A stretch of DNA of 64,000 bases from Bugula neritina (lineage: Eukaryota > Animalia > Bryozoa). Both the position numbers and the translations under genes were made by a program. Below, piece by piece: positions 13,918-62,200 of this stretch (position 1 is the first letter of the stretch; every line of letters starts with the position of its first letter). The stretch is from positions 4,992,662 through 5,056,661 of the forward strand of contig OZ037770.1 in assembly GCA_964035545.1 (NCBI GenBank). Reading direction: 5' to 3'. The notes under the pieces were generated by a model, which was not told where the DNA came from, ran no database searches, and saw nothing but the letters and a program-made list of their open reading frames with translations.

Positions 13918-13918
13918 C

Positions 13919-13936
13919 TGGTGGCAGCAGTGGGAT
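13919..13936 (+). promoter_or_regulatory. Primer-binding site, tRNA-Leu type
   Basis: TGGTGGCAGCAGTGGGAT one base after the LTR; near-complement of the tRNA-Leu 3' end. Confidence 0.8.
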
Positions 13937-13972
13937 CTCACTTAATACAAATGCCCCTAGTCAGGGAGTAAG

Positions 13973-26095: not shown

Positions 26096-26214
<119 letters not shown>

Positions 26215-27842: not shown

Positions 27843-28017
<175 letters not shown>

Positions 28018-37554: not shown

Positions 37555-37600
37555 ACTATTATATATTATATATATTATATATTATATATATATTATATAT

Positions 37601-37670
<70 letters not shown>
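37555..37670. repeat. (TA)n-rich microsatellite
   Basis: Directly visible. Confidence 0.9.
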
Positions 37671-37674
<4 letters not shown>

Positions 37675-38243
37675 CTTTGTTCAGGAGTAGAATATTGTGT
37701 AATACTGTTACACTATTATAACTATCTAGCATGTGTATTAAACTATCTAGCTTGTGTATTAAACTACAACTATTGAATGCTGTTACATTGTTATATTATT
37801 TAATTACTTTTTTGTATACAATTATATATGTGACTGTATCTAGCTTTGTTTATCCCACTATATAGGTGATTGAAATATTCTAAAAATTCCTTCGATATGA
37901 GTTCTTTGCATTTTCCGTAAACTGTGTTAAATCTAATAAAAATCACTTTGAGCCACAACTTATTCAACTTTAAAGTGTTTGATGCAAAGGAATATTAGTA
38001 ATGAATATATATTTATATATAATGAATTATATAAGTGTTTGAGAAAGTTGTCAAAGTCCTTGAATTAAATTTGTTGACCTGATGCTTTGTTCAGCCCTTT
38101 CTGAAAAAAATTTATGTACTACAATGCTGAAAATAGCAGGTGACCATATTTTATTACTTCATGTGTAATAAATGTTTTAGATGGAGTTGCTACACCTTAG
38201 CTGATACTTATTACCAAGAAGGACAATCTACTATTTGGTAGCC

Positions 38244-41200
38244 ATGGCAACAGCTGGTGAGTGAATTTAAATACTATTTTATACACTTATTTCTTGGAAA
38301 GTAGAAATGTTTAAACTCTGAAGATATGTTGATATTATGCCACCGCAATATAATATATATATAGAAGTATTTTATTATCACTACTTCCTATGATACTGTT
38401 TTATGTCACCAATTAGTGTATTACTTTGAAAATAGTACAATAGATAATATTATGCAAGCAGTTGGGTTAGAGTTGTCTTATCTCAAAAGAATAAACACTG
38501 AACTATAAACTATACATTAAATGATTATTTAGAAAGAATATAAAGCTATCTAATAAAATATATGTTACTCATGGTTATGATTACTAAAATCTACCATATA
38601 ATTAATTTATTCATTCAGTAGTTGACAGGTGTCAGAATCATAGACAGCACCTGCTAGCACTGTGTAATAATTGAACTGTCACTGTATGATGTTACAGATA
38701 ATATGAGAATCTGGTTCAGACATTCTGGACAGCCTCCTGTAAGCTGGTCAGATGTCCAGTCTGCTAATACCAAGTCATATACTACTGCTGAGGTGAAACA
38801 TGAAGTTGGGAGTTATGATATCACAGATCTTAAACTGGAGGGAACCATTCCAAGTAACATTGGGGAGATTACTGGTGAAGCCCTGTGTCTATGTGTTTTT
38901 AACCTAACTGACAGAGCAAGTCTGGACAAGTGAGTGTCTACTAAGATAGCTGTGTAAATGATAAATGAGTTCAGTTGTGTAATTTATTAAATAATAATCG
39001 ATAATATAAGGTGCTGAAGCTGAGGCATATTTTTGCTCATAATATATTCATACAAAATAATATACATCAACATAGTAATATGTGCAACATTGTATGTAAT
39101 CTAAATGAGCTTATAATTGTAGAAACTAGGGAGTGTAAAACTGCCTGTACTGTTACTCAATATCATTGATTAAATCATGTTTTATGTATATATGTTTTGT
39201 CATCAACTACACAAATTAGTCAATATATTAACTTACATAGCAATTTGGAGTGAGACCTCATGTACTGTAAACTAACAGCTAACCTTGCATAATGAAGCTT
39301 CCTCTCGTTACCTTCAACATAATTTAGCTGAAAATCTTTGCTTTTCTTTGCGACAATATATCTGTTTCTTGCATGTTTTTTTGTTGAATACACAAGCAGC
39401 ATAATATCAGAATATATTTCTCGGAAATGTTGTTAAACAGCATAAAAAGAATGCCGATGCACAATATACTTTACATCTGTTTAGTATCTTGTAATCCGAC
39501 ATAAAATAGTCAAAGTCAAGAATAAGCAGCATATATAGTATATTCATTTTGATGGTGGACATAAACACATGACACACTTTATATTACAGTTTATGTCAGC
39601 TAACTCAGTTAGAGAAACTATACATAGGAGATAATCCTCTCAACACAATACCAGAAGCTGTGTCATCACTCACATCACTTGAAGAGTTGGATATGGAAAG
39701 CTGTGGATTATCTACTCTACCTGAGAGGTTTGTGTGCCAAAATATTTCCTTGGTTTCAAACCCTCAATATTTCACATTTTTAATGCTTATCAAGTAGTGT
39801 TATGCTATGTTATCATATATTGCCAACGTATATTAAAAAACCTAAGTATGCATTTTTTGAACTTATCTAAGAGTTTGTCTTAAGGTGGAAATAATATAAT
39901 TGTATGGTGTGCCATTGTATATCATTATATCACAAGAACTTTTTGTAATTATTAATAAAACAGCGATCTGTAGTTTACGTGCAACCATGGCAATGATCAA
40001 ATTTTTCTTGGGCTCTTGCGACAATCACTTTTGCTATCCATTGCCGCAATGAATTTGTTAAGGCTACTGCATTTTCTCTAGCCTGGTTGACTGCGCCTCA
40101 AGCAATATAGTATGTACGGTGTATATTATTATGACACAGTAAAATACATATATTCTACCCTTTCTGAGTATTGCAGTCTATGCCAGCTGACTCAGTTAGA
40201 GGAACTGAACATAGCAAAGAATCCTCTCAACATAGTACCTGAAGTTGTGTCATCATTCACACCACTTAAAGAGTTGTATATGAGGGTCTGTAAATTATCT
40301 ACTCTACCTGAGAGGTTTGTGGAACACAGTCTTTCTTGTTTCAAACACTCGATAATTCACATGTTGATATAATGCTTAGCAAGTATTGCTAATTAGTATG
40401 TCACTATGTATTGTTGAAAAGCATAAAGCTATAAATTAAAATTTTCTTGAGGCTATATGATATTAGAGTTTCTCAAATAACTCGAAAATAAATATGTTTC
40501 AGTTATCTGGCATTACATTTCCTATTGCTATAAAACCTTCCTTAACAAATACTATAGCACCCACTTTTTATAGTTTACTAGAATCTATTTCAAATTAAAT
40601 GTCTTTTACTTTGAATATACGTTGTCGCAATAAATTTGCTTTTTTTGCATGTTATACTTGATTGAAGACACAAGCATAGTATACAGAGTACATACTATTA
40701 TCCTGATACAGTGGATTACATATATACCATATACTTTATATTACAGTCTATGTCAGCTGACTCAGTTAGAGAAACTATACATAAGAGAGAATCCTCTCAA
40801 CACTGTACCAGAAGTTGTGTTATCATTCACATCACTTAAAGAGTTGGATATGATTTGCTGTAAATTATCTACTTTACCTGAGAGGTTTGTGGAACACAGT
40901 CTTTTTTGTTTCAAACACTCAATAATTTACATGTTGATATAATTCTTACCGTATATTGCTAATTAGTATGTCACTGTGTATTGTTGCAAAGCATAAAGTT
41001 ATAAATTATTAGTTTCTTGAGGCTATATTGTATTAGAGTGTTTCAAAACTTGAAAATAAATAATATATTTCAGTTATCTGGCATTACATTTCCTATTGCT
41101 ATAAAACCTTTTTAACTAATATTATAGCACCCACTTGTAGTTTACTATAGTGTGTATTTCTCATCAAATGGTTATTAGAGCCTTCTGTATTTCACTTTGA

Positions 41201-44200
41201 ATATGCCTTAGCGTAATAAATTTGCTACTTGGGTATTTTACTTGATTGAGTATGCAGTGCATGTTGTGATACAGTAGACTAAATATATCACATACTTTAT
41301 ATTACAGTCTGTGTCAACTGACTCAGTTAGAGAAACTATACATAGGAGATAATCCTCTCAACACAATACCAGAAGTTGTGTCATCACTCACATCACTTGA
41401 AGAGTTGGATATGGAGAGCTGTGGATTATCTACTCTACCTGAGAGGTTTGTGTGCCAAAATATTTCCTTGGTTTCAAACCCTCAATATTTCACATTTTTA
41501 ATGCTTATCAAGTAGTGTTATGCTATGTTATCATATATTGCCAACGTATATTAAAAAACCTAATTATGCATTTGTTGAACTTATTTAGGAGTTTGTCATA
41601 AGGTGGAAATGATATAGTTGCATGGTGTGCCATTGTATATCATTATATCACAAGAACTTTTTGTAATTATTAATAAAACAGCCATCTGTAGTTTACGTGC
41701 AATCATGGCAATGATCAAATTTTTCTTGGGATCTTGCGACATCACTTTTGCTATCCATTGCCGCAATGAGTTTGTTAAGGCTACTGCATTTTCTCTAGCC
41801 TGGTTGACTGCGCCTCAACCAATATTGTATGTACAGTGTAGATTATTATGACACAGTAAACTACATATATTCTACCCTTTCTGAGTATTGCAGTCTATGC
41901 CAGCTGACTCAGTTAGAGAAACTGAACATAGCAAAGAATCCTCTCAACATAGTTCCAGAAGTTGTGTCATCACTCACAACACTTAAGGAGTTGTATATGA
42001 GAATCTGTAAATTGTCCACTCTACCTGAGAGGTTTGTGGAACACAGTCTTTCTTGTTTCAAACACTCAATAATTCACATGTTGATATAATGCATAGCAAG
42101 TATTGCTAATTAGTATGTCACTATGTATTGTTGAAAAGCATAAAGCTATAAATTAAAATTTTCTTGAGGCTATATGATATTAGAGTTTTTCAAAACTTGA
42201 AAATAAATATGTTTCTGTTATCTGGCATTACATTTCCTATTGCTATAAAACCTTCTTCAACAAATACTATAGCACCCACTTGTGGTTTACTGGGATCTAT
42301 TTCACATTAAATGCTTATTAGCTTTCGGTATTTTACTTTGAATGTGCCTTGTCGCAATAAATTTGTTTCTTGAATATTTTACCTGATTGAATACGTGTCA
42401 GTTTACTTCATTTAGTACACACCAGCAAATTATGACCTAACATTAAAGTTTGCTCAAAATCCATTTAAATCTACTATACATGGTATTTTTATGTGCTGGT
42501 TTTAACTACGCATAACAGAAAAGGCTGGAAGGGGATTCCCCAACATTAAAGCACAGGTCATTGTCATATGCACTTAATATTCTATATGTGCAGACCGTTA
42601 CGAAAAATTCGTAACGGTCTGTAACCAAAACTAGCTGAACAATTAGGGAAAAACATGAGAAATGAAGCAAAATTGAAAAGAACTTTGATTATTTAGGTGT
42701 ATTTATTGGTGTTTTACTAGTTTTTACCAAAAAACCATGTTCATTACCAGTTAAATTGTGAAAAATAGCCAAAAACTGAAGATTTCGAGTGTGTACTAAA
42801 TTAATTAAAATGACCCATACACAAGTAGAGTATACACAGTATACAATAATATCTTGGTACAGTGAATTACATATATTATGCACTTTATATTACAGTCTAT
42901 GTCAGCTGACTCAGTTAGAGAAACTAAACATAGCAGATAATCCTCTCAACACAGTACCAGAAGTTGTGTCATCACTCACATCACTTAAAGAGTTGGATAT
43001 AGAGAGCTGTGGATTACCTACTCTACCTGAGAGGTTTGTGGAACACAGTCTTTTTGTTTCAAACACTCAATAATTCACATGTTGATATAATGCTTACCAA
43101 GTATTGTTAATTAGTATGTCACTATGTATTGTTGAAAAGCATAAAGCAAAAAGTTGGAATTTCTTGAGGCTATATGATATTAGACTTTCTCAAAACTCAG
43201 AGATAAATATGTTTCAGTAATCTGGCATTACATTTCCTATTGCTATAAAACCTTCCTTAACAAATACTATAGCACCCACTTTTTATAGTTTACTAGAATC
43301 TATTTCAAATTAAATGTCTTTTACTTTGAATATACGTTGTCGCAATAAATTTGTTTTTTTGCATGTTTTACTTGATTGAAGACACAAGCATAGTATACAG
43401 AGTACATACTATTATCCTGATACAGTGGATTACATATATATCATATACTTTATATTACAGTCTATGTCAGCTGACTCAATTAGAGAAACTATACATGAGA
43501 GAGAATCCTCTCAACACTGTACCAGAAGTTGTGTTATCATTCACATCACTTAAAGAGTTGGATATGATTTGCTGTAAATTATCTACTTTACCTGAGAGGT
43601 TTGTGGAACACAGTCTTTTTTGTTTCAAACACTCAATAATTTACATGTTGATATAATTCTTACCGAATATTGCTAATTAGTATGTCACTGTGTATTGTTG
43701 CAAAGCATAAAGTTATAAATTATAAGTTTCTTGAGGCTATATTGTATTAGAGTGTTTCAAAACTTGAAAATAAATAATATATTTCAGTGATCTGGCATTA
43801 CATTTCCTATTGCTATAAAACCTTTTTAACTAATATTATAGCACCCACTTGTAGTTTACTATAGTGTGTATTTCTCATCAAATGGTTATTAGAGCCTTCT
43901 GTATTTTACTTTGAATATGCCTTAGCGTAATAAATTTGCTACTTGGGTATTTTACTTGATTGAGTATGCAGTGCATGTTGTGATACAGTAGACTAAATGT
44001 ATCACATACTTTATATTACAGTCTGTGTCAACTGACTCAGTTAGAGAAACTATACATAGGAGATAATCCTCTCAACACAATACCAGAAGTTGTGTCATCA
44101 CTCACATCACTTGAAGAGTTGGATATGGAGAGCTGTGGATTATCTACTCTACCTGAGAGGTTTGTGTGCCAAAATATTTCCTTGGTTTCAAACCCTCAAT

Positions 44201-47200
44201 ATTTCACATTTTTAATGCTTATCAAGTAGTGTTATGCTATGTTATCATATATTGCCAACGTATATTAAAAAACCTAAGTATGCATTTTTTGAACTTATCT
44301 AAGAGTTTGTCTTAAGGTGGAAATAATATAGTTGTATGGTGTGCCATTGTATATCATTATATCACAAGAACTTTTTGTAATTATTAATAAAACAGCCATC
44401 TGTAGTTTACGTGCAATCATGGCAATGATCAAATTTTTCTTGGGCTCTTTCGACCATCACTTTTGCTATCCATTGCCGCAATGAATTTGTTAAGGCTACT
44501 GCATTTTCTCTAGCCTGGTTGACTGCGCCTCAACCAATATAGTATGTACAGTGTATATTATTATGACACAGTAAACTACATATATTCTACCCTTTATGAG
44601 TATTGCAGTCTATGCCAGCTGACTCAGTTAGAGAAACTGAACATAGCAAAGAATCCTCTCAACATAGTACCAGAAGTTGTGTCATCACTCACACCACTTA
44701 AAGAGTTGTATATGAGGATCTGTAAATTATCTACTCTACCTGAGAGGTTTGTGGAACACAGTCTTTCTTGTTTCAAACACTCAATAATTCACATGTTGAT
44801 ATAATGCTTAGCAAGTATTGCTAATTAGTATGTCACTACGTATTGTTGAAAAGCATAAAGCTATAAATTAAAATTTTCTTGAGGCTATATGATATTAGAG
44901 TTTTTCAAAACTTGAAAATAAATATGTTTCTGTTATCTGGCATTACATTTCCTAATGCTATAAAACCTTCTTCAACAAATACTATATCACCCACTTGTAG
45001 TTTACTGGAATCTATTTTACATTAAATGCTTATTAGCTTTCGGTATTTTACTTTGAATGTGCCTTGTCGCAATAAATTTGTTTCTTGAATATTTTACCTG
45101 ATTGAATACACAAGTAGAGTATACACAGTATACAATAATATCTTGGTACAGTGAATTACATATATTATGCACTTTATATTACAGTCTATGTCAGCTGACT
45201 CAGTTAGAGAAACTAAACATAGCAGATAATCCTCTCAACACAGTACCAGAAGTTGTGTCATCACTCACATCACTTAAAGAGTTGGATATGGAGAGCTGTG
45301 GATTACCTACTCTACCTGAGAGGTTTGTGGAACACAGTCTTTTTGTTTCAAACACTCAATAATTCAAATGTTGATATAATGCTTACCAAGTATTGTTAAT
45401 TAGTATGTCACTATGTATTGTTGAAAAGCATAAAGTTATAAATTACATATTTCTTGAGGCTATATGATATTAGAGTTTCTCAAAACTTAAAAATAAATAT
45501 GTTTCAGTTATCTGGCATTACATTTCCTATTGCTATAAAACCTTCCTTAACAAATACTATAGCACCCACTTTTTATAGTTTACTAGAATCTATTTCAAAT
45601 TAAATGTCTTTTACTTTGAATATACGTTGTCGCAATAAATTTGTTTTTTTTGCATGTTATACTTGATTGAAGACACAAGCATAGTATACAGAGTACATAC
45701 TATTATCCTGATACAGTGGATTACATATATATCATATACTTTATATTACAGTCTATGTCAGCTGACTCAGTTAGAGAAACTATACATAAGAGAGAATCCT
45801 CTCAACACTGTACCAGAAGTTGTGTTATCATTCACATCACTTAAAGAGTTGGATATGATTTGCTGTAAATTATCTACTTTACCTGAGAGGTTTGTGGAAC
45901 ACAGTCTTTTTTGTTTCAAACACTCAATAATTCACATGTTGATATAATGCTTACCAAGTATTGCTAGTTAGTATGTCACTATGTATTGTTGCAAAGCATA
46001 AAGTTATAAATTATAAGTTTCTTGAGCCTATATTGTATTAGAGTGTTTCAAAACTTGAAAATAAATAATATATTTCAGTGATCTGGCATTACATTTCCTA
46101 TTGCTATAAAACCTTTTTAACTAATATTATAGCACTCACTTGTAGTTTACCATAGTGTGTATTTCTCATCAAATGGTTATTAGAGCCTTCTGTATTTTAC
46201 TTTGAATATGCCTTAGCGTAATAAATTTGCTACTTGGGTATTTTACTTGATTGAGTATGCAGTGCATGTTATGATACAGTAGACTAAGTATATCACATAC
46301 TTTATATTACAGCCTGTATCAACTGACTCAGTTAGAGAAACTATACATAGGAGATAATCCTCTCAACACAATACCAGAAGTTGTGTCATCACTCACATCA
46401 CTTGAAGAGTTGGATATGGAGAGCTGTGGATTATCTACTCTACCTGAGAGGTTTGTGTGCCAAAATATTTCCTTGGTTTCAAACCCTCAATATTTCACAT
46501 TTTTAATGCTTATCAAGTAGTGTTATGCTATGTTATCATATATTGCCAACGTATATTAAAAAACCTAATTATGCATTTGTTGAACTTATTTAGGAGTTTG
46601 TCATAAGGTGGAAATGATATAGTTGCATGGTGTGCCATTGTATATCATTATATCACAAGAACTTTTTGTAATTATTAATAAAACAGCCATCTGTAGTTTA
46701 CGTGCAATCATGGCAATGATCAAATTTTTCTTGGGATCTTGCGACAATCACTTTTGCTATCCATTGCCGCAATGAGTTTGTTAAGGCTACTGCATTTTCT
46801 CTAGCCTGGTTGACTGCGCCTCAACCGATATTGCATGTACAGTGTATATTATTATGACACAGTAAACTACATATATTCTACCCTTTCTGAGTATTGCAGT
46901 CTATGCCAGCTGACTCAGTTAGAGAAACTGAACATAGCAAAGAATCCTCTCAACATAGTTCCAGAAGTTGTGTCATCACTCACACCACTTAAGGAGTTGT
47001 ATATGAGAATCTGTAAATTGTCCACTCTACCTGAGAGGTTTGTGGAACACAGTCTTTCTTGTTTCAAACACTCAATAATTCACATGTTGATATAATGCAT
47101 AGCAAGTATTGCTAATTAGTATGTCACTATGTATTGTTGAAAAGCATAAAGCTATAAATTAAAATTTTCTTGAGGCTATATGATATTAGAGTTTTTCAAA

Positions 47201-50200
47201 ACTTGAAAATAAATATGTTACAGTAATCTGGCATTACATTTCCTATTACTATGAAAACTTCTCCAATAAATACTATATCGCCAACTTGTAGTTTACTGGA
47301 ATCTATTTTACATTAAATGCTTATTAGCTTTCGGTATTTTACTTTGAATGTGCCTTGTTGCAATAAATTTGTTTCTTGAATATTTTACCTGATTGAATAC
47401 GTGTCAGTTTACTTCATTTAGTACACACCAGCAAATTATGACCTAACATTAAAGTTTGCTCAAAATCCATTGAAATCTACTATACATGGTATTTTTATGT
47501 GCTGGTTTTAACTACGCATAACAGAAAAGGCTGGAAGGGGATTCCCTAACATTAAAGCACAGGTCATTGTCATATGCACTTAATATTCTATATGTGCAGA
47601 CCGTTACGAAAAATTCGTAACGGTCTGTAACCAAAACTAGCTGAATAATTAGGGAAAAACATGAGAAATGAAGCAAAATTAAAAAGAACTTTGATTATTT
47701 AGATGTATTTATTGGTGTTTTACTAGTTTTTACCAAAAAACCATGTTCATTACCAGTTAAATTGTGAAAAATAGCCAAAAACTGAAGATTTCGAGTGTGT
47801 ACTAAATTAATTAAATTGACCCATACACAAGTAGAGTATACACAGTATACAATAATATCTTGGTACAGTGAATTACATATATTATGCACTTTATATTACA
47901 GTCTATGTCAGCTGACTCAGTTAGAGAAACTAAACATAGCGGATAATCCTCTCAACACAGTACCAGAAGTTGTGTCATCACTCACATCACTTAAAGAGTT
48001 GGATATAGAGAGCTGTGGATTACCTACTCTACCTGAGAGGTTTGTGGAACACAGTCTTTTTGTTTCAAACACTCAATAATTCACATGTTGATATAATGCT
48101 TACCAAGTATTGTTAATTAGTATGTCACTATGTATTGTTGAAAAGCATAAAGCAAAAAGTTGGAATTTCTTGAGGCTATATGATATTAGACTTTCTCAAA
48201 ACTCAGAGATAAATATGTTTCAGTAATCTGGCATTACATTTCCTATTGCTATAAAACCTTCCTTAACAAATACTATAGCACCCACTTTTTATAGTTTACT
48301 AGAATCTATTTCAAATTAAATGTCTTTTACTTTGAATATACGTTGTCGCAATAAATTTGTTTTTTTGCATGTTTTACTTGATTGAAGACACAAGCATAGT
48401 ATACAGAGTACATACTATTATCCTGATACAGTGGATTACATATATATCATATACTTTATATTACAGTCTATGTCAGCTGACTCAATTAGAGAAACTATAC
48501 ATAAGAGAGAATCCTCTCAACACTGTACCAGAAGTTGTGTTATCATTCACATCACTTAAAGAGTTGGATATGATTTGCTGTAAATTATCTACTTTACCTG
48601 AGAGGTTTGTGGAACACAGTCTTTTTTGTTTCAAACACTCAATAATTTACATGTTGATATAATTCTTACCGAATATTGCTAATTAGTATGTCACTGTGTA
48701 TTGTTGCAAAGCATAAAGTTATAAATTATAAGTTTCTTGAGGCTATATTGTATTAGAGTGTTTCAAAACTTGAAAATAAATAATATATTTCAGTGATCTG
48801 GCATTACATTTCCTATTGCTATAAAACCTTTTTAACTAATATTATAGCACCCACTTGTAGTTTACTATAGTGTGTATTTCTCATCAAATGGTTATTAGAG
48901 CCTTCTGTATTTTACTTTGAATATGCCTTAGCGTAATAAATTTGCTACTTGGGTATTTTACTTGATTGAGTATGCAGTGCATGTTGTGATACAGTAGACT
49001 AAATGTATCACATACTTTATATTACAGTCTGTGTCAACTGACTCAGTTAGAGAAACTATACATAGGAGATAATCCTCTCAACACAATACCAGAAGTTGTG
49101 TCATCACTCACATCACTTGAAGAGTTGGATATGGAGAGCTGTGGATTATCTACTCTACCTGAGAGGTTTGTGTGCCAAAATATTTCCTTGGTTTCAAACC
49201 CTCAATATTTCACATTTTTAATGCTTATCAAGTAGTGTTATGCTATGTTATCATATATTGCCAACGTATATTAAAAAACCTAAGTATGCATTTTTTGAAC
49301 TTATCTAAGAGTTTGTCTTAAGGTGGAAATAATATAGTTGTATGGTGTGCCATTGTATATCATTATATCACAAGAACTTTTTGTAATTATTAATAAAACA
49401 GCCATCTGTAGTTTACGTGCAATCATGGCAATGATCAAATTTTTCTTGGGCTCTTTCGACAATCACTTTTGCTATCCATTGCCGCAATGAATTTGTTAAG
49501 GCTACTGCATTTTCTCTAGCCTGGTTGACTGCGCCTCAACCAATATAGTATGTACAGTGTATATTATTATGACACAGTAAACTTCATATATTCTACCCTT
49601 TATGAGTATTGCAGTCTATGCCAGCTGACTCAGTTAGAGAAACTGAACATAGCAAAGAATCCTCTCAACAATAGTACCAGAAGTTGTGTCATCACTCACA
49701 CCACTTAAAGAGTTGTATATGAGGATCTGTAAATTATCTACTCTACCTGAGAGGTTTGTGGAACACAGTCTTTCTTGTTTCAAACACTCAATAATTCACA
49801 TGTTGATATAATGCTTAGCAAGTATTGCTAATTAGTATGTCACTATGTATTGTTGAAAAGCATAAAGCTATAAATTAAAATTTTCTTGAGGCTATATGAT
49901 ATTAGAGTTTTTCAAAACTTGAAAATAAATATGTTTCTGTTATCTGGCATTACATTTCCTAATGCTATAAAACCTTCTTCAACAAATACTATATCACCAA
50001 CTTGTGGTTTACTGGAATCTATTTTACATTAAATGCTTATTAGCTTTCGGTATTTTACTTTGAATGTGCCTTGTCGCAATAAATTCGTTTCTTGAATATT
50101 TTACCTGATTGAATACACAAGTAGAGTATACACAGTATACAATAATATCTTGGTACAGTGAATTACATATATTATGCACTTTATATTACAGTCTATGTTG

Positions 50201-53200
50201 GCTGACTCAGTTAGAGAAACTAAACATAGCAGATAATCCTCTCAACACAGTACCAGAAGTTGTGTCATCTCTCACATCACTTGAAGAGTTGGATATGTGG
50301 AGCTGTAAATTATCTGCTCTACCTGAGAGGTTTGTTTGTCACAACAAGTTTTATATATCTGTTTTAACATTCAATAACTATTATTTTATAGCAATATTTC
50401 AACACAGTAAATACTATATTAAGATGCAAACCTGCAAACCTACATATGAATCTCACCGTTTCTGGGGATATTGTCAATTAGCACACTATCTATAGAAGTT
50501 TCCTCGACTTCACAAATTACTTTATAGCATTTCAATATTTTTTTGAAATGCTCACCATGATAGGTTGACTAGGCTTTTCTTCAGAAACCGTTTTATTAAC
50601 TCTTTTCATTATATTATAACTATAGCTACTTCTGTACACAAAATTAGTATTTATTATATTATTATACTTACACAATTTGTCATTGTTGTCTCATAAATCA
50701 GGGAACTATTTTCTTATATAACTTCTATAATGCCATCACATAGCAACATACTTGACTCAATCAACTGTATTGTGTAAAGGTTACAAGTAAAAGTAAATTA
50801 AAAAAATTCTTAGTGGATTATGTAGTATTTTTGATTTAAGGTAATTAGGTTATTCAAGTTCTACTTTTAATTATTTCGAAGTAAAAGATCTGGCATTATA
50901 TTGTAAACCAAAGAGAACAAAACAAACCATTCAATATTGCAACTTTGTCTTTTTTTCATGCTTCACTTTAGTTGTCTCTCTCCAATTATCAGTGTAAAAG
51001 AAACCAATTTTTATCCTATACCTGTTCTCAAGCAGCTTGTTAATATATTGTTTCATATTTAATTTACATTCCTAAGTTACAAATTAACCGACCTTTGAAA
51101 GTGTAACAGATTCCTGCGAGACTATGACTTTCCAGAGTTGTATTCTTTCATCGCGAAATAATTCACAACTTCTACTTTCTGTCTAAAAATATACTGCATT
51201 TATTAGAATACTTAGTGAGAAGTTGTGTCAGAAGTATTTTATTTTACTTGAAATTACTTTAATGCCTTATGCAGATGCCACAAAGCTGCAGCCTACCATG
51301 TTCCTATTTGCTGATAACTGTATTATGGCACATACTAGGAATTTTCTACTCTGTAGTATAAAATATTATTCCTTCTAATAGAATACCATTGTGAACAGTT
51401 ACTCAGTTATCTGCCATATAGAAAAAGATTTCTGTATAATAGTATTCTGTCTAGGGTGTGTTTTTATGACAGTACTTAGTACATATGTAGCACTTTTCTC
51501 ACCAAATATACACTTACAATTATACTGTTATATTATATATCTTCATAAAATACTTAAAATGTTATGCATCGTATATATATAATATGATACTTGTACATAT
51601 TTGTGACTTAGACATACTTGTTTTCTTTTCTTAATTAATGTACTAATTCAAGGTATTGTATATAAACTTGCTATAGTAACTGCAACTTAGTACTATATTA
51701 TGTGTTATTATTTGTCACAAAACTGTTGGTAGTAGTGTGACGAGTTCGAAAAGTCTGGTAGTCAGAAGTGTGTAGGCAAGTAGCATACAGCTTGCTAATC
51801 CAGTTGAGAGTAAATAGAGTTGTGAATATAAGTAGACTTTATTCCTCCAGTAAGATATGCACAGATGAACTTATGAAAATGAACTCATTTGTAAACACAA
51901 CTGCCTCAGTATTCATAGTAAACAAAAAAACTCTAGGACATTCTCAAGCATTCTAGTATAGAAAATTCTAGTAGAAAAAATTCCTTACATGCCAATACTA
52001 TTTAGATAGAAAATCAAAACAAAACAAAACATTGGAATTTCCATGGTTATTTCGCAATTATTGCGCAACACCTTGTTTACATTGCTGAGCAGTAGTTAAC
52101 ATGACTAACGAAAACAGTAACAATGAACAATGACCCATCTCTTTGATTAGTCTAGAATATTTATGAACATTCCTGTATAATCATTAGGAAAAACCCGGTA
52201 AGTCTATAGGTATATGTACACTCAGAATTTGTGACAACCCCCCATTCTAAGAGAAATTATCTTGATAATTTCTCCTTACTTCTTAAAATTCTGAGTCAAT
52301 TCGGCTTAGATAATCGGCTCCAACATTGTCATTTCCTTTGATTGACTTCACCTTGCTTCTGAAGTTCTGTAAATACATGGCCAATCTCATCACTCTGCTG
52401 TTTCTTACTATACAGATCCAACAAATTATCTTTGCATTCTTTTCTTTCCTCATCATGATCAATAATTCCAGTACCAGCAGCATCTAAAGTCATCACAGCT
52501 CCAACAGTCATAGGGTCGGTAGGCATCTCTCGCTAAAAATATTTCTTCAGCATGTTGGCATGGTGTGTTCTCCTCTTGCCTCTAATGTTGATAATGTAGT
52601 CACTCAGTCTGACTTTCTCCTCAATATTGAATGGTCCTTGCCAATGCATCAGCAATTTATTTCCATCCCTAGGTAGAAGAATAAGCACTTTGTCACCAGG
52701 TTTGAAGTCTCTCTGCTTGGCTTTCTTGTCAAAATAGTGTTTGTATCTTTTTTGACTGTCTTTCAGCGAAGCTAGTGCCATTTCCATCATGTCATCTAAA
52801 CGCTCTCTCAATTCAAAAACATGTTGATAGCAGGTCTTGACTTCATCGGCAGTGTCTTCTTTTGTCCAAAGTTGTCGCAGGATGTACATTGGTCCACGTA
52901 CAGTTCTTCCATAGAGTAACTCGAATGGGGCGAAGCCTGTTGATTCCTGTGGGACTTCTCTATATGCAAATAGAGCCGCATTGATGAATCGATGCCACTG
53001 TCTTGGCTCTTTAGCACACAACTTTTTTAACATACTTTTGAGGGTTTCGTTGAACTTTCCCACAAGTCCATTGGCCATCGCATGGTATGGTGAGGTAGGA
53101 AGTTGCCGCATGTCAAGTAATCTGGTAAACTCTTTCATGTAGTCCGAGATGAATTGAGTTCCTTGATCACTTATCACCTCCTCTGGTATCCCAACACGAC

Positions 53201-56200
53201 TGTACATGTCAAGCAGCGCTTCAGCTACAGTAGCTGAATCAATGTTCTTCAATGGTGTAGCATAGTCAACTAAAGTTAGGATGTAGCGGTGTCCTTTCTC
53301 ACTTGGAGGGTTAATTGGTCCGATTAGGTCTATTGCACATCTTTTGAATGGGGTGTCAATTAGTGGAGTTTCCTGTACTGGAACTTTCATGACTGAGCCT
53401 TTTTTCACCGTCTTCTGGCAAATGTCACATGACTGACAGAAACGTACGACATCTCCGTTTAGTCCTGGCCAGAAGAAGTTGGAAAGTACTCTATCAGTGG
53501 TTTTCTTTACTCCTAGGTGTCCGCTCATTATTCAGTCATGAGCTTTCTGAAAAACTTCCTTTCTCAGTGAACTGGGTACCATGAGTTGTTTAACAGGTTT
53601 TACACTGACAGACTTCGAGTCGGTGTACTCACGGTACAGAATCCTCTTCCTCACCACAAACCTAGTGGTGCATCCCTTTTTCTCCTTCACTTCTTTTGCA
53701 TCGAAGAAACGTTCCAATGTGGGGTCATCCCTCTGCAGTCTGGCTATCTCATCTTTCGCTATACTTAATGGGTTAGCATTTGAATCAATCATCAGTGGTT
53801 TGTCTCCTGACTTTTCTTTGACAGCTTGAGCTCTTGTGGTTACGGCGCAGTCCTTCCAGTTTTCTAGCAGCTGGTCAGCTGATCTTGCTCCATCCACATT
53901 CCCAATAAGCAGGTCACAAATCGTTTTGTCCATTACTGCAGCTTTGACAACACCATTGTAAAATGGTGAGCGCACTGAGATAAGTGCCCACTGAGCCTCC
54001 CTAACACTTGCATCAGCCATATTCAGATAAACTGATTCTCCAGTTAGGTATTGAGGTTGCACATACTGTGCATTGACTACAATGCAACCACAGCCGGTGT
54101 CGCGCATTACAGTAGCTCGTTGGCCATTAACTTCCGCATCAAATATCGCTGTGCCCCCATCTTTGAATTTAAGTCCATTCTTGCAGACAGCAGCGTTGAC
54201 AAACTTTTTACCATTAACTGTAATTTCCATAAGTTCTTCCACTTTAGATGAGATTCCTGGATCTGTGACCACAGTCTTATTCTGAGTAGTAGCTATTGCA
54301 GCAGCAGCATGCACTGACCTCCCACCATACTTTCTGCAGTCTGAAGTATTGTGGTTGTTCATCTTGCAATGTGAACAGTACTTCTTCCCTCTCTGTGGGC
54401 AGTTACGAGCAATGTGTGACTTATCTTTGCAGATGAAGCATGCCCCATAGCTTTTACTTCCTTGTTCAGCATTCATGCTACCGGCAGGTGTGTTTTCCAT
54501 CCTTTTTGTATTAGTTCTCTTTGTCTTTGCTAGTTTCCTTCTACGAGCGTGCAAGAACAGTGACGCTGCATCACACATATCCTCACTGCTGTTGTAGGAA
54601 CTATGCTTTAAATGCACAGCTAGGTCGTCTGGGCATGATGATACAAATTGTTCAGTCGCCACTAGTTTGGCTATGTCCATGCCCCCTGAAAGCTCCACCC
54701 ACTTGTGCACATAATTTTCTATCCTAGTGAACAGCTGGGCAGGGGTTTCATCCTTGTAAGCTTCTGCCTCTCTGAGCTTTTTTCTGTAGCCCTCTTGTGT
54801 CAAGTTAAAGCGCTCCAACAAGGCTTCTTTAATTTTTTTATAATCTCTACGATCAGGAAGGTGACAACCGGATGTAAGCTTCTGTTGCCGTACCCCATAG
54901 GTACTGACTGAGATGGTAGGGCCAATCTCCCTTGTCCCAGTTACATCCTTCGGCAACCCACTCGAATTGCTCTAAATAGCTATCCATTTCATCCACCTTC
55001 TCATCAAAGAATGGTATTTTTGGTTTTGGTTTGTTAGCTGTTTCTAACCTGGCGCTTTCATGTCTTGAGTGCTCCAAACTTGTGTTATCTTTCAGCTTTT
55101 CCATATCTAATTCATGTCGTTGTCTTCTCTCTTCTGCCTCCTGGTCAGCTTTTATCTTCATCTCCATTAAGGCTTTCTCATTTTCTTGCTTGATCCTTTC
55201 TGCCTCACGCTAATTTACGCTCCTCTCGGTCCTTATCTTTTTTCTCTCGGTCCTTTTCTTTTTCCTCTCGTGCCTTTTCTTTTTCCTCTTGTGCAGCAAC
55301 AATGGGTAGGTTCTTTTCAACAAAAGCTACGAGCTTTTCCTCCACCAAACCAAGATCTTTACCCATCTGTGTCACTCTCTCCAACAACGCCATGATGTCT
55401 CAACAACTGCTAATTAATCCTGTGTATGCTCACGTTGTAACAGATAATTTCTCTGTGTGCGACTGAGACTTCCCGGAGCAGCCCCCAATTGTCACAAAAC
55501 TGTTGGTAGTAGTGTGACGAGTTCGAAAGGTCTGGTAGTCAGAAGTGTGTAGGCAAGTAGCATACAGCTTGCTAATCTAGTTGAGAGTAAATAGAGTTGT
55601 GAATATAAGTAGACTTTATTCCTCCAGTAAGATATGCATAGATAAACTTTTAAAAATGAACTCATTTGTAAACACAACTGCCTCAGTATTTATAGTAAAC
55701 AAAAAAACTCTAGGACATTCTCAAGCATTCTAGTAGAAAACATTCCCCACATGCCAATACTATTTAGATAGAAAATCGAAACAAAACAAAGCATTGGAAT
55801 TTCCATGGTTATTTCGCAATTATTGCGCAACACCTTGTTTACATTGCTGAGCAGTAGTTAACATGACTAACGAAAACAGTAACAATGAACAATTAGTCTG
55901 GCAGAACTGGGGGTTAGGTTCGCAATCTCCGATAAAGTTTTTTTCTCTCTTGATTATTTATCTTGAGGGTCCAGGTAAATGTTTCCAGGTGGGTGTGGAC
56001 CCACCACCCTTGAGCATTTCGAGAAATCCAAGATGGCCGCCAATTATGGAAAAATTGTCATCTAATAGGCATAAAGTTTATATTATGTTGCAAAAACAAA
56101 AGTTTTTTGATGATTCAAATAGATGTGCATTTTTGGAATGAATATGTGCCATGCCAGTGCAAAATTAATCAAAGTTAAGAGCCAAGAGACATGTTGTTCA

Positions 56201-59200
56201 GCTAAAAAATCGAAATTGCTTCAATAAAACAATCACATATAGTGCAAAGAAATGATACAAGGTTTTTAAATAATTGTTTGGACAGATATATTAAGAAAAA
56301 CATTGCTTATTACCAGTGAATAGAAAGTGAAAAAGAGATACAGAGGCATATTGCTCAGCTAAAGTTGAAATGGAACATATTATATATATATAACCATACA
56401 GATGTGACAAACTTTAGCTCATGTTCATATTAAACACCTTTCTCATTTTTTTCTATCATTAGAATTTGTTAGAAATGTTAGTTCATTGCAGCACACTCCT
56501 GTTACTGCTTCACAAGGGCAGAACTCTGTGCATGGGATAGATGTACTAGAATAGCCATATCTCCTTGTTTTGCATGATTGTTGGCTTCCACAGGAGCATT
56601 TAATGAATTTGGGCCATTTTACTTTATTTAGCACACATCAGCAGATTATGATCAAAAATTTTAAAGTTTGCTCAAAATTCATGAAAACTTACTATATAGA
56701 GTAGTAGAATTTGCTAATTCTAACTATGCATAGCAAAAAAACTGGGAAGAGGCCTTGCAACATTTAAGCGCGGCGTCATGTCATACGAGCTAAATATATA
56801 TTTGTGAACCATCACGGTCTATATAATATCTCAATGTACTAATAAATTAGGAAAAAAACATAGAAAATCATGCAAAATTGGAAAAGCCTCAATTATTCAG
56901 TTTATTTGTTAAAATTTTAATAGTTTGAGACAAAAATCTATATACAATAGCAGCTAAATTGTAAAAAATCGCCAAAAACTAATATCATTGAGTGTACACC
57001 AAATTAAGTAAAATGATCTACTTCATAATACTGTCTGGTGTAAGCACAACATCATTTCCGACTCTTTTTGGGAAAAGAGATTCGATTAGATCTCTTTTCA
57101 CCTACCAATGTTCTAGTAGGTTTAATGCCGCAGTTTTATATGGCTCCTGGAGGTGTGCTCTGGTGACATTGTCCAATAGCTTTATCTGTAGGAGGCAAAG
57201 TACATAAGTTAAAGGCACATCGCAAATAGCATTGCTGACCTTAGTTTTCTAAGCTTTTTGTCTTGTAGATGTCATGGAAGAGCACTTTGCATAAGGGTAG
57301 CAACATAGCATAAACCTGGTAGCTTGTATGAATAGTCATCCTGAAAAGAAGCCCTAGTGTCACCAAATTACACTTTTCTTCTACCAAGACATTTAGTATG
57401 ACTCCCTTTCCAATATTTTACATTGTTGCCACTGTATCACACTCTGAGAGGTCATGGGACGGCAGCAAATTGTCTATTATAGGGATTTGTCTCAAACTTT
57501 CTCACCTAGTGTGCTGTGGTCTAGGATGGGTGGCAATTTTGCAGGGCACCAAGTGCTATCAGAGAGTGTCATCTGATTCTGTCGTCAAAATCTTTATCTG
57601 AAAGGCCACATTTCAGTATTTCATCCTTCATTAGATCCATTAACCGTTTCTTTGGCCTCCCTCTCTTTCTCTGTATCTTTATCTCAGCCACCATTATAAT
57701 ACACAGTTAGTTTAAGGTCATAACTTTCCACATTCAGGCACTGCTTTATGTTATATATAAACGGTTTCCAGGGGATAGCTCGAACAGTTTTTGTCTCACA
57801 TTAACAAATTTTACATGAAAAGATGGCTCTTGCATTCCTCTTTCATATACTTTTTTGATTTTTCAATAAAAAATTTTCTGAGAAAGTTGTTGCATAATAA
57901 GTAAAATTTTACACCCTCCATGTTCCACTGCTGTAGCACAGGGGATTCATTTTATAAAGTCTAAAAGTTAAACTTGACATTCCTTGATATGTTTTCTCTA
58001 ATATACTTTCTTTGTTTTTTGAAATTCTGTTTATGCTCTTCACAATTTGGTAAAAACATACACCATATTGCAAGTTTCACTGCAATTATCTAAATTCTTC
58101 ATATGGTGGTTCTAGCTACGCTCCTGTGACTAATTATAACATTCCTAGTACGTTTGCCGCTGTGTGCTATCACAATAACATATAGTACCCTCTCGCACAA
58201 ATTGGCAATCTATTGGATTTCTGCCAATATAATGTTCCCTGTTTTACATTAGCACTTAGCTGAATCATCTCACTATGTTACAATAATATATTGAAAATGC
58301 CTCAGCACAACATAATTCTTTGTTTGTTTGGCAGAGTTAATTTCAGCTAAATCACTTCACTTTGCAGTCTTGTCAGTAAAGGTTTCTCTAATTCACATAT
58401 GATTATTTTAAGTACATTGTATTCTATAAGATCATTTCAAGGTTTAGTCCAGTGTTCAGTATCTAATTATTATGCATGTATGTTGTCTTACTGGTGAACA
58501 AAAGTTAAAAAAAAACTTTACAATTATAGCCATATTTATTATACATGCGTAGGATTTGCATAAGTTGACAAAAAAATTGCAACAAATCAGGGTTGAACCA
58601 TGACCAACCAACTCGTCTCTGACGCCTCTAACGCCTCTAACCTCTGGACCACGCTGTGATCGTAAAAGCGGCGCGCATTATATGAGTAACTATCATTACA
58701 TAAATATTTCGCTCGCAAATGGGTTATAATTATTAGGCTGTCAATTCATGTTGATAGCAGTCAACTGTTGCAATAGTCTCGGGTTACTATCAAAGCTAAT
58801 GGTTTTGAACAAATAACCCAAAAGTTTAAAAATAAGTAGCTTGCGTATTACTAGCTACAAAAACAGGTCTGAAATAGACTGGTAAAGCAAGCTCTTATTG
58901 TAGAGTTTGCAGATGTGCTCTAAAATAAAACTTAAACTGTATGCTATTACATAAGTATTTGTATGCGAGAGATATAAATGGACATTACTGAGTTTCTGGA
59001 AAACAACATACTTGAAGTTAACTTTGACAATGGTGTTTTCTTTTCATCATAGCTAGCCTATAGCATAAATCTCTAATCATATGAATCTTTATGAAGCCCA
59101 CAGCTCATGTAAGGGTGGCAATGTAATTTGAAACGAACAATTATGTTGCTGCATTGTGTCTAAGGTATATTAGAGAGCAGAATTTGGTTTTACTAGCCTA

Positions 59201-62200
59201 CCCCAACGGCATTCTACAATGCAGCTTATATGCTGGCAGTTGTAATAAGTACTGCCAATAGCAAGGTTACTATCACTGCTAGCTCTGTGCAGTATGTAAC
59301 CTCTTGAATAATTGCGCCAATTTTAAACTCTTGGAAGTTGGCCAAGTTATCATATCGCAGCCAGCCACCGGAGACAAAGCATCAGACCTATTCATATAAT
59401 ATTATACTGATGCACTTGGTAGCAGAGTGGCTAATCTAATATAGTTCATAGTTCAACACCCTTTACTTTGGGAATACAGCCTCTTTTTTTAGGTTTACCT
59501 TACAAAGCATGAAAATATCTAAACTGATATTCTGATAATTTAGAGGTACATTTTGAAAACTAGGTTAATTGCACTTGTTTGCACAACAACAATAATAAAA
59601 TAGATATTATGCCGTATAATAAAAACACACATAATACTATATAATATATTATAATGATAATAATATAATATTATAAGTACCATTACTGCATTTTATAAAT
59701 CACATGGTTGCCAAAAAAATGTATCACAAATTTTGTAATTATACATCAAAACTAGAACTAGCTAGGCAGCAGGTTAGAATAGAGTAAATTTTTAAAACAT
59801 GAAATCATGATTTGACTATTGTTTTATTTAGGCCAACCAACCTAGGAATACAAGATTGGGTTTTAGCTGACAGTTTATTATAACATTTAGCTTTTGAGCC
59901 AGCAGCACTGGCACTTTTGAAGTATAGGCAAAGTTAGTGAAGCGAGACTAACAAGCACTCAAATACAAGGCATATTGAGACGCAATAACAAGTCAGGAGC
60001 GTATAAATTGATAAGAATGTGGAAGGGGGACTATGTTTTTCAACAAGCTATAACTTAAACATGAATTGGCTTTTGAAAAAAATAAAAAAGTATATTGGAG
60101 AACATAACTTTCTTTATCTTTTCATATTTTTTTTGTTCCTGTGACATTCAACCTGTTCGAGCTATCAGTGGAACATTGTTCATATAGAACATAAAGCACC
60201 TGGCAAAGAGCCAGAAAATGAAAAGTATGACCTTAAACTAACTGTGTATCTTTTTCCTATCCTTTCTGCGCACATGTCCACACCATTGAAGAGGTTTCCT
60301 CTTCGTGCCTATTGCGATGGTTTTTATTTTGGCCTCCTCTCTTATATTATCACATGTTACATGGTCTTCCCACTCTAAATTGTAAATGTGTCGAAGCATC
60401 CTCATCTCAGTTGCACTTATCTTGTCTTCTTGTCTTTGAGTCAGTGGCCATGTCTGATATCCATACATCAGTGTAGTTTTTATTGCCATCTTGGATAACA
60501 GAACCTCCAGCTTAGTGGAAATTTTCTTATCTTCTTGTCGCGGACTGTTCTGAAAACTCAATTTTCATAGATTTTTTTAAAATTGACTTGGTCTTAGTTT
60601 TTCTTATTTTCCCTGTTTCCTTGAATGTAGAAGGTGGCAATGCTGCAAGTTTATGAGCCATTAAAGAGTCCGCATCCAAATTCTTGGTCTGCTTGAGTAC
60701 AATGGTTCGGGCATATATGACTTCAGTATCATACACAGTGGTATTAAAAACCTTAATATGCCTTTGAGATGATACCATTGTCTTCACTTAAGATATACAA
60801 GGATTTATTTAACCCCTCCGACTAATTCACTTTAAATTCTTGTATAGATGCTTTACCTATAACAAAAATATTGTCAATAATTATTGCTGAATAACTGATG
60901 ACTTTCTCTGTTTCAATATTGACAAGAGCAGCTGGGTGGCATTCTTCTTTGAGTAAGACATTGCAGAGTTCAATCTTCTTTTTGACAAACCTTCTGTTCC
61001 TTGAATCAGATTAGATTCTTGATTGCATCTCTTCCTTATGAGTAGTGGAAGCATTTATTTCAGACTCATCTCTGATGTCACTGAGGCCTTACTGTATCTT
61101 GTTGCATGCAGATCGAAGTGCTATACACCCACACCTTGACAATTTCAGTTTTATTGGTGATGCCAATGGTTCCCCCTTGCTGTGGCCAAATCTCACGAAG
61201 GTCACCTCAATGGTCATGTTTGACCAGATGCCATTGAGCTGGCCGAGTTTATGATGCATTGTGTGATTACCAGCCACGAATTCAATCCTTACATCTTGTG
61301 GCATGATCTACATGCTATACAGATATAAATACATTTCCTCTTCCATTGCTAGGTGTAAGGCCCAGTCTCCTTCTCTATCAGCTATGATGTGGGTGTTGAT
61401 GGTAAAATTTGGTCTAATAAAGCACATGACCCACAGTTTTGCTGTTCTTGAGCTCTCTGAAATCTTAGTCAACATCTTTTCAAGGTTCTCCATGCTAGTG
61501 ATTACACTTTCATCAAAGACTGGCTTCAACAGCTCTCCCACCAATATTCTCAGGCCCAGTACATTCTGGGAAGACTTTTTTTATTTAGCATTTTGGGGAA
61601 ACTGCCAAAAGTAGAATTAAATACTTTTACCAAATCCGTTTCAACCATTAGTGTTCCATTACACTGAACATAGGTCATTAAAGTGGAAAAATTAGTTGTA
61701 ATTTTTTATGAAAGGAGGTTGGTATGAAAAAGGTAGGGAACCATTGTTCTAATGGATGTATCACTTCCCCCAGCATAAAATAGATTCTTATTCATAAAAA
61801 AAACTGTTTACAAATGTTTTTAGAGATAAAGTCATATGTGCTGATTGTAGAAGGAGTTTTTGAAAGCAAAAATGTCAATATTTAGATAAATGATGTGTCA
61901 ATAATAATGCAATTAAATTATGTTAAGAAGTCATGGTGTTGTGTTATTAAGGTTGTTGGCCCCTTTTTCTAACTTTAAAAAACATGGCTAAAGTTTTAAA
62001 ACTGAAAATAACTTTTAAATTGGCAGCTCAACAAACCTTTTTGATAGGCATGCTAGTTTGAAACAAATTGCTATTTAGCACACATGACAATGGCGTTGCA
62101 TTTCAATTTTGCAGAACCGCCTTTAGTTTTATTTGTTGGACATATTTGTAATCAGCATTTAAAATTACCCCATACAGTAAATTTTCATGAATTTAGAACA

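What the first reader, a model, noticed from the sequence alone, without database searches (positions are those of the whole stretch)
39590..50329. Cassette variation concentrates on solvent-exposed LRR beta-strand positions
Seen: framework residues are almost invariant, while x positions of LxxLxLxxN/C vary. Repeat 1 reads L-[Y/N]-I-[G/A/R]-[D/K/E]-N; repeat 2 reads L-[D/Y]-M-[E/R/I/W]-[S/I/V/C]-C-[G/K]. One codon takes GAG, AGA/AGG, ATT and TGG (multi-base changes, charge reversals) in exons that otherwise differ little. Established: these positions line the concave ligand-binding face of LRR solenoids and are the diversified sites in plant NLRs and VLRs. Inference: diversifying selection for binding specificity.
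Basis: partly seen in the sequence, partly recalled or inferred. Interest (0 to 1): 0.78.

Follow-up and report, generated by a model that had tools for sequence, protein, structure and literature searches.

The report
Bryozoan ROCO with hypervariable LRR exons
A gene, likely from a bryozoan (moss animal), builds the front of a GTPase protein from 18 near-identical two-repeat exons whose copies differ mostly at eight predicted binding-face residues, likely because selection keeps changing what the protein recognises, a design so far described in brown algae.

Summary
Observation confirmed; interpretation largely supported. The 18 exons (138 nt, phase 2-2, two 23-aa LRRs each) belong to an LRR-Roc-COR (ROCO) gene. 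The closest named relatives are from the bryozoan Watersipora. The copies fall into only five types, so the window alone is a small sample: dN/dS is 2.0-3.7 at concave codons (p 0.0002-0.06 against 1), 0.34 in the core and 0.75 on the convex side. The stronger evidence is 79 related cassettes from public data. All 79 have a different concave surface. Pairs identical at all 33 non-concave positions still differ at 71% of eight concave ones. Watersipora ROCOs show the same two-repeat unit and variable sites, and several end in a caspase. Against: recent copies inside the array show no concave enrichment (1 of 8 changes), gene conversion can inflate dN/dS, one exon is frameshifted (likely assembly error), and no ligand or immune role is shown. 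Brown algal ROCOs are the published precedent; I found no paper on this in bryozoans. This scan noted similar designs (ankyrin-ROCO, LRR-GPCR) in other animals. New variant of a known kind.

The parts
38244..38256 (+). First coding exon segment (ATG, phase-1 donor)
   Evidence: Sequence; RNA-type contigs join 38256 to 38700 in runs X7, X8, X9 (85% likeness, family level)
38698..38929 (+). N-terminal cap exon (76 codons, W-x-R-H-S-G-Q-P motif), ends in phase 2
   Evidence: Similar to the N-terminal cap of Watersipora ROCOs XP_067945196 (E 9e-5) and XP_067944843 (E 3e-6); joints from 38929 to cassette starts; no Pfam family
39590..50329 (+). Array of 18 symmetric phase 2-2 exons, each two 23-aa LRRs (first ends LxxLxLxxN, second LxxLxLxxC); order A B C A B D C A B D C A B D C A B E; introns 423-449 nt, two of 864 nt. 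Exon starts: 39590, 40177, 40747, 41308, 41894, 42896, 43461, 44022, 44609, 45185, 45752, 46313, 46900, 47902, 48467, 49028, 49615, 50192
   Evidence: Pfam LRR_4 hits on the three cassettes scanned; cassette-to-cassette joints in RNA-type contigs
49615..49753 (+). Cassette 17 (type B), 139 nt, out of frame; likely an assembly error or a private change
   Evidence: the extra base is absent from all contig depth at that place in X1, X7 and X8; X3 covers the place with no such row
50192..50329 (+). Last cassette (type E), carries the TGG codon 36; its upstream intron is D-type (1 of 130 differences from D2) while its downstream intron differs from all (0.28-0.33)
42390..42820 (.). 431-bp repeat inserted in a B-to-D intron and duplicated with the array (second copy 47396-47826); other copies at 30263-30688 and 56615-57016
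   Evidence: very high depth in public runs
50330..62802 (+). 12.5-kb intron between the last cassette and the Roc exon, holding a broken LTR retrotransposon on the - strand (LTRs about 51712-52131 and 55489-55893) and other repeats
   Evidence: ORFs, LTR pair at 93.6%; no stray cassette by tblastn
62803..64000 (+). Large exon: final LRRs, Roc GTPase (G1 GNTMAGKT at 63113, DMGGQ at 63275, THKD at 63482) and start of COR; runs off the window
   Evidence: Pfam Roc E 1.8e-7, 31.8 bits, above the cut-off of 27; COR-A E 0.004, below its cut-off; motifs; GT..AG joint from a cassette end to 62803 in X7 (2 contigs) and X8 (1 contig)

Best explanation
This is the variable sensor arm of an animal ROCO (LRR-Roc-COR) GTPase, likely from a bryozoan, built from frame-preserving two-LRR exons whose predicted concave binding face is likely under diversifying selection. 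Shown: the exon array, its reading frame, the Roc exon, splicing of family members from cap exon to cassette to cassette to Roc exon, and the concentration of amino-acid change on eight positions. Inferred: unequal crossing-over and gene conversion add, remove and reshuffle cassettes and keep the scaffold uniform, while selection favours new residues at motif positions 5, 7, 8 and 10 of each repeat. Inferred: the solenoid binds a fast-changing ligand, most likely from parasites or microbes, and ligand binding switches the Roc-COR module. Untested: signalling to a C-terminal effector; relatives in Watersipora carry a caspase there, but this gene's 3' end lies outside the window.
For: Window codon models: dN/dS 2.03 for the 12 motif x positions (p 0.035 against 1) and 2.63 for the eight (p 0.007), core 0.34, convex 0.75 (14 distinct exons). 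In 10 further fits on 8 representative exons, the eight give 2.6-3.7 (p 0.0002-0.014) and the 12 give 2.1-2.8 (p 0.002-0.059), with and without multi-nucleotide changes, on three tree choices. Concave pN exceeds both flanking introns in 7 of 10 between-type pairs. Related cassettes (79 kept of 93): parsimony changes per site 40.4 concave-8, 6.7 convex, 2.9 core (permutation p 5e-5 for the 12 against other non-core sites); 79 of 79 distinct concave strings; 37 pairs identical at all 33 non-concave positions differ at 71% of the eight; in 156 pairs with alignable translated intron, intron 0.25, convex 0.16, concave-8 0.66. Positions 14, 36 and 37 each take 14 residues. Trp is 12.7% there against 0.5% in translated introns, and Pro is 0 of 474 at six concave positions. 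Predicted strands at 9-12 and 32-35. Four Watersipora ROCOs have near-identical tandem 46-47-aa N/C units differing at 0.54-0.69 of the same positions against 0.10-0.25 elsewhere. Mosaic types and 18 of 91 incompatible site pairs indicate exchange between cassettes.
Against: The window holds only five types. Of 8 amino-acid changes among recent copies within types, 1 is at the eight concave positions, so no enrichment; the five A copies share one concave surface. Exon synonymous divergence (0.03-0.23) is mostly lower than upstream intron divergence between types (0.17-0.41, except D-E 0.01), so silent sites may be constrained or homogenised, which would inflate dN/dS. Recombination is present and is only crudely modelled. 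The broad class with multi-nucleotide changes on one tree is not significant (p 0.059). In 3 of 10 type pairs concave pN does not exceed both introns. The 79 relatives are proteins only, of unknown species, individual and functional status, so no dN/dS was computed for them. Cassette 17 is frameshifted in this assembly. RNA joints are family-level and short-sided (21-25 letters at the Roc joint), so this locus is not shown to be expressed. No ligand, tissue or immune induction is shown.
Confidence: 0.78

Rival explanations
1. Relaxed constraint plus concerted evolution: the concave positions are simply free to drift, while gene conversion and purifying selection keep the scaffold uniform; no selection for new specificity.
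For: Exon silent sites are less diverged than introns and cassettes are mosaic. Recent within-type changes are not enriched at the concave face. One of the window tests is only borderline (p 0.059).
Against: A conversion tract would also homogenise concave codons, which are interleaved with framework codons. Yet pairs identical at 33 other residues differ at 71% of them. Exposed convex residues are far less variable (6.7 vs 40.4 changes per site). Concave divergence exceeds translated-intron divergence (0.66 vs 0.25). The residue spectrum (Trp, Arg, Gly, Ser, no Pro) is unlike neutral AT-rich sequence.
Confidence: 0.12
2. Targeted diversification: a local mutator or short-patch conversion, possibly somatic as in lamprey VLRs, rewrites the two strand patches; selection is secondary.
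For: Concave differences are saturated at every scaffold distance. The two patches are uncorrelated with each other (r 0.04) and patch 1 with the scaffold (r 0.05). Multi-base codon differences are common.
Against: Framework codons between the variable ones are invariant at the DNA level in the window (N15 AAT, L33 TTG, C38 TGT in 17 of 17), which a regional mutator would not spare. The fitted multi-nucleotide rate is small. Every cassette has its own splice sites and no orphan or inverted donor cassette was found in the window.
Confidence: 0.06
3. The family evolved under diversifying selection, but this particular locus is a decayed or over-expanded copy (frameshift, transposon-filled intron) or its array is partly mis-assembled.
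For: Frameshift in cassette 17. Near-identical higher-order repeats of 2.3-5 kb are hard to assemble. The best DNA run holds 0.46 of the sampled words.
Against: 17 of 18 cassettes, the cap exon and 399 codons of the Roc exon are open with intact splice sites. The extra base is missing from the contigs of three of four runs. A frame-neutral neighbour structure lets one bad exon be skipped. Repeat copies carry distinguishing substitutions and an insertion.
Confidence: 0.2

Closest known systems
Brown algal LRR-ROCO candidate immune receptors (Zambounis et al., PMC3341825: abstract and Results parts 2-3 of 3 read; Teng et al., PMC11378527: abstract, Discussion part 1 of 2 and passages read)
   Same: LRR-Roc-COR order; repeats on equal-sized phase-2 exons; exon duplication and exchange; positive selection on a few concave sites (four per repeat there: 15, 17, 19, 20; four per repeat here); large family.
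   Different: Animal, not alga. Unit is 138 nt with two 23-aa repeats (Asn then Cys type), not 72 nt with one 24-aa repeat. No inverted or orphan intronic cassettes in this window. Higher-order tandem expansion of few types. Relatives carry a C-terminal caspase, whereas Teng et al. report LRR-ROC-COR as the only brown algal architecture. Alternative splicing is reported in algae and not shown here.
Watersipora subatra MFHAS1-like ROCO proteins (XP_067935480, XP_067935483, XP_067936773, XP_067932967, XP_067947674, XP_067944843; automatic annotation only)
   Same: Closest named relatives (33-43% identity over the Roc exon). Same alternating Asn/Cys two-repeat unit of 46-47 aa, repeating at the same register, varying at the same positions.
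   Different: 3-6 units in the proteins examined, against 18 here. Their exon structure was not checked (no DNA). Several end in a caspase domain; unknown for this gene.
Vertebrate NLRP3 and related NLRs (PMC11352923, passages read)
   Same: Each LRR exon encodes two alternating repeats (N/C consensus) with a conserved border that permits in-frame skipping.
   Different: 171-nt exons of 28-29-aa repeats, C-terminal to a NACHT ATPase; exons are old and divergent, not a homogenised hypervariable array.
Lamprey and hagfish VLRs (mechanism from PMC13428168 passages; variable concave face as described in PMC3341825)
   Same: Near-invariant LRR scaffold with hypervariable concave residues; VLR structures appear among weaker PDB hits.
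   Different: VLRs are extracellular and assembled somatically from non-exonic cassettes by deaminase-dependent copying. Here cassettes are spliced exons of a predicted cytoplasmic GTPase, and no somatic step is shown.
Bacterial LRR-AP-GTPase(Roc)-COR-effector conflict proteins (PMC8195603, passages read)
   Same: Rapidly evolving N-terminal LRRs, Roc-COR switch and a variable C-terminal effector that can be a caspase.
   Different: Prokaryotic and intronless; no exon cassettes.

Membership tests
ROCO proteins | Roc GTPase domain with G motifs | tested here: met
   Pfam Roc above its curated cut-off; G1, G3 and G4-like motifs present
ROCO proteins | COR domain directly after Roc | tested here: inconclusive
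   COR-A hit E 0.004, below cut-off and cut by the window end; full-length alignment to named MFHAS1-like proteins
ROCO proteins | LRR array and Roc in one transcript | tested here: met
   Cassette end joined to 62803 at GT..AG in two RNA-type runs; family level, short sides; phases compatible
Brown-algal-type exon-shuffling ROCO | Equal-sized frame-preserving LRR exons | tested here: met
   17 of 18 exons 138 nt, phase 2-2
Brown-algal-type exon-shuffling ROCO | One 24-aa repeat per 72-nt exon | tested here: not met
   Two 23-aa repeats per 138-nt exon
Brown-algal-type exon-shuffling ROCO | Positive selection on concave sites | tested here: met
   recombination only partly controlled
Brown-algal-type exon-shuffling ROCO | Inverted or non-coding LRR exons in introns | tested here: not met
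   tblastn finds only the 18 plus-strand cassettes in the window
Brown-algal-type exon-shuffling ROCO | Alternative splicing of LRR exons | tested here: inconclusive
   Joints out of genomic order occur but short contigs from many paralogs and other individuals cannot be assigned to this locus
VLR-type somatic receptors | Somatic assembly from flanking non-exonic cassettes | not testable with these tools
   No multi-tissue DNA; cassettes here carry their own splice sites
VLR-type somatic receptors | Extracellular LRR protein without a GTPase | tested here: not met
   Array is spliced to a Roc exon
NLR (NACHT or NB-ARC) | STAND ATPase N-terminal to the LRRs | tested here: not met
   The nucleotide-binding domain is Roc and lies C-terminal to the LRRs
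Watersipora-type LRR-Roc-COR-caspase | C-terminal caspase domain | not testable with these tools
   The gene runs off the window and no genome is held; six relatives have a Pfam caspase hit

The most novel reading that the evidence does not exclude
Bryozoans have their own variable-receptor system: a large family of intracellular LRR-Roc-COR-caspase proteins, each joining sensor, GTP switch and executioner in one chain, whose binding face is assembled from a pool of interchangeable two-LRR exons reshuffled between colonies or by splicing within a colony, giving individual-specific repertoires for parasite defence or self/non-self recognition.
Probability: 0.25. Interest if true: 0.85.

Novelty: new variant of a known kind. 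Interest (0 to 1): 0.63.

Why it matters
Exon-cassette ROCO genes with a selected concave face were described in brown algae. Finding the same design in an animal, with a different unit (two repeats per exon), suggests it arose more than once and points to ROCO GTPases as variable immune sensors outside algae. My searches found no paper on ROCO or LRR-GTPase families in bryozoans. The family names concrete candidates, eight codons per exon and caspase-bearing relatives, for testing how a colonial invertebrate recognises parasites or non-self. It is also a natural LRR scaffold library with a fixed frame and a variable face.

Tried and rejected
No whole genome is held for the window. The genome index did not answer in six tries, so no paralog DNA and no Watersipora exon structure were obtained. 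A DNA pattern that finds 17 of the 18 window cassettes gave 7 metagenome loci, all 7 chance matches on translation. No run is on record as RNA; X7, X8 and X9 are guessed RNA, and I rely on their exon-only cover and GT..AG joints. Joints out of genomic order were not taken as alternative splicing, because paralogs and other individuals cannot be separated in short contigs. The profile search for stray cassettes printed nothing, not even the true cassettes, so it failed; only the tblastn part is used. The structure prediction covers two repeats only (pLDDT 70, pTM 0.44), gives no surface areas, and no fold search or complex prediction was run. Rows left out of the paralog counts: 12 more distant hits (P0111-P0122), 12 partial or out-of-register rows and 2 further misregistered rows. 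NLR and VLR membership were considered and rejected. No earlier scan note fits this genome or the Roc sequence. Supplements were not read; Figure 2 of PMC11378527 lists about forty animal ROCO architectures that I could not see and may include a caspase fusion.
Full report
What is there. The window is AT-rich animal DNA. At 39590-50329 lie 18 exons flanked by AG and GT: 17 of 138 nt and one of 139 nt. Each begins and ends in phase 2 and encodes two 23-residue LRRs, the first with Asn and the second with Cys at the motif's ninth position. Upstream are a short start exon (ATG at 38244) and a 232-nt exon (38698-38929) that resembles the N-terminal cap of Watersipora subatra ROCO proteins. After a 12.5-kb transposon-rich intron, an exon from 62803 encodes more LRRs, a Roc GTPase (Pfam Roc above its cut-off) and the start of COR (weak hit), then runs off the window. 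With all cassettes included the chain would have 36 cassette repeats and about 1300 residues up to the window end. Named relatives of the Roc exon are W. subatra proteins at 33-43% identity; of 10 top representatives looked up, 7 had names and all 7 were W. subatra. The host is therefore likely another bryozoan.

Splicing. In three runs guessed to be RNA, cover is confined largely to exons. Contigs join the start exon to the cap exon, the cap exon to cassettes, and cassettes to cassettes. Two of these runs join a cassette end to 62803 at GT..AG. These joints come from a large family laid at 85-95% likeness, so they show how the family is spliced, not that this locus is expressed. The extra base in cassette 17 is absent from all contig depth in three of four runs; the fourth covers the place without reporting it missing. 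An assembly error is the likeliest cause.

Checking the observation. But the 18 copies are five types arranged A B C A B D C A B D C A B D C A B E, so the real sample is small. I defined classes from the motif LxxLxLxxN/CxL: 18 core positions, 12 x positions of the strand region (eight of them at motif positions 5, 7, 8, 10 of each repeat), and 15 remaining, mostly convex positions. Among 17 intact exons, 14 of 24 nucleotides vary in the eight codons against 30 of 111 elsewhere (p 0.007).

Selection in the window. A codon model with a shared silent rate gives dN/dS 2.03 for the 12 positions (p 0.035 against 1), 2.63 for the eight (p 0.007), 0.34 for the core and 0.75 for the convex side. On 8 representative exons the eight give 2.6-3.7 (p 0.0002-0.014) across three tree choices, with or without multi-nucleotide changes. 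The 12 give 2.1-2.8 (p 0.002-0.059); 10 of 12 planned fits finished. Silent sites in the exons are mostly less diverged than upstream introns, which could inflate these ratios. Against introns directly, concave pN exceeds both flanks in 7 of 10 type pairs. Recent changes within types show no enrichment: 1 of 8 replacements is at the eight positions. The window alone therefore gives moderate support.

Selection in the family. Protein searches returned 93 close cassette relatives from JGI data, each a gene call over one exon and its intron edges. I kept 79 full-length, in-register rows. Positions 14, 36 and 37 each take 14 residues. Parsimony changes per site are 40.4 for the eight, 29.7 for the 12, 6.7 convex and 2.9 core, on a tree built without the eight (permutation p 5e-5 for the 12). 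All 79 have a different eight-residue surface. The 37 pairs identical at all 33 non-concave positions differ at 71% of the eight. In 156 pairs whose translated upstream intron aligns, the intron differs at 0.25, the convex side at 0.16 and the eight at 0.66; intron and exon are partly decoupled, so this is a rough yardstick. Trp makes up 12.7% of positions 14, 36, 37 against 0.5% in translated introns, and Pro is absent from 474 residues at six concave positions. Neutral drift with gene conversion cannot easily give this, because tracts would homogenise the interleaved concave codons too. These rows are proteins of unknown species and status, so this is not a dN/dS.

Structure. A two-repeat model (pLDDT 70) has strands at 9-12 and 32-35 and a helix at 22-25. 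The best solved matches are the 23-residue LRR proteins LIC11098 and SHOC2, aligned without gaps in most repeats. That the x positions of this strand face the concave surface is established for LRR solenoids (PMC11352923 and PMC3341825, passages); exposure was not computed here.

Array dynamics. Type D pairs a B-like first patch with an A-like second patch. Type E has a D-type upstream intron and a different downstream one. 18 of 91 informative site pairs fail the four-gamete test, though recurrent change at selected sites can also cause this. A 431-bp insertion was duplicated with a 5-kb block. In the family the two patches vary independently (r 0.04). No inverted or orphan cassette lies elsewhere in the window.

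Relatives. Four Watersipora ROCOs carry tandem 46-47-residue Asn/Cys units that differ at 0.54-0.69 of the same eight positions against 0.10-0.25 elsewhere. Six relatives end in a caspase domain, with catalytic motifs in the four full ones checked. At 50% clustering, 107 representatives match the Roc exon at E up to 1e-30; the lower part of that list includes LRR-driven matches.

Mechanism. Most likely the array is the ligand-binding arm of an intracellular sensor. Frame-neutral exons let unequal crossing-over and conversion change repeat number and order. Selection renews four exposed residues per repeat. Binding would switch Roc-COR and, by analogy with relatives, a death protease. The first two steps rest on sequence evidence here; ligand, immune role and effector are inferred. 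Confidence 0.78 that diversifying selection on a binding face explains the pattern.

Comparison and novelty. Brown algal ROCOs have one 72-nt phase-2 exon per repeat, exon shuffling and four selected concave sites (PMC3341825, abstract and Results parts 2-3; PMC11378527, abstract, Discussion part 1 and passages). NLRP3 has two-repeat exons with in-frame skipping (PMC11352923, passages). Bacterial LRR-Roc-COR proteins carry variable effectors including caspases (PMC8195603, passages). A 2026 review of animal immune diversification has no occurrence of 'ROCO' or 'bryozoa' (PMC13428168). Ten searches of the open library found no description in bryozoans; subscription papers and supplements were not seen. 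Four unchecked notes of this scan describe similar designs in acorn worms and feather stars; they are leads, not support. Verdict: real, well supported, a new variant of a known kind; interest 0.63.

Noticed in passing
window 13509-21111: Apparently intact, GC-rich (58%) Ty3/gypsy-type LTR retrotransposon on the + strand: gag-like ORF 13961-14842, protease-RT-RNase H ORF 14773-17526, integrase ORF 17527-19368 (domains read from the translations); two LTRs of 409 bp, 100% identical, so a very recent insertion.
   Followed up: partly
window 51712-55893: Second, broken LTR retrotransposon on the - strand inside the ROCO intron; LTRs 93.6% identical. No RT-encoding ORF was listed for it.
   Followed up: partly
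window 32426-35176: Element with long terminal inverted arms (414 nt at 94%, plus inner arms), likely a non-autonomous DNA transposon.
   Followed up: no
proteins P0009, P0010, P0142, P0146, P0155, P0184: LRR-Roc-COR proteins with a C-terminal caspase domain; five are named Watersipora subatra, P0155 was not looked up. His-Gly and QACxG motifs are present in the four full caspase domains checked. No paper found on this fusion in animals.
   Followed up: partly
proteins P0007, P0009: Both Watersipora ROCOs begin with Met-Gly (one Met-Gly-Cys), resembling an N-myristoylation signal (motif recalled, not tested). The window gene starts Met-Ala.
   Followed up: no
protein P0206 (unnamed, ENA): Another LRR-Roc-COR protein with tandem near-identical two-repeat units varying at the strand positions; organism unknown, so the design may extend beyond bryozoans.
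   Followed up: no
window 10498-11400; 26010-26282; 27777-28040; 37600-37680: A 14-bp minisatellite and long AT microsatellites; 24877-25144 and 27457-27724 are duplicated and inverted relative to 22645-22912.
   Followed up: no
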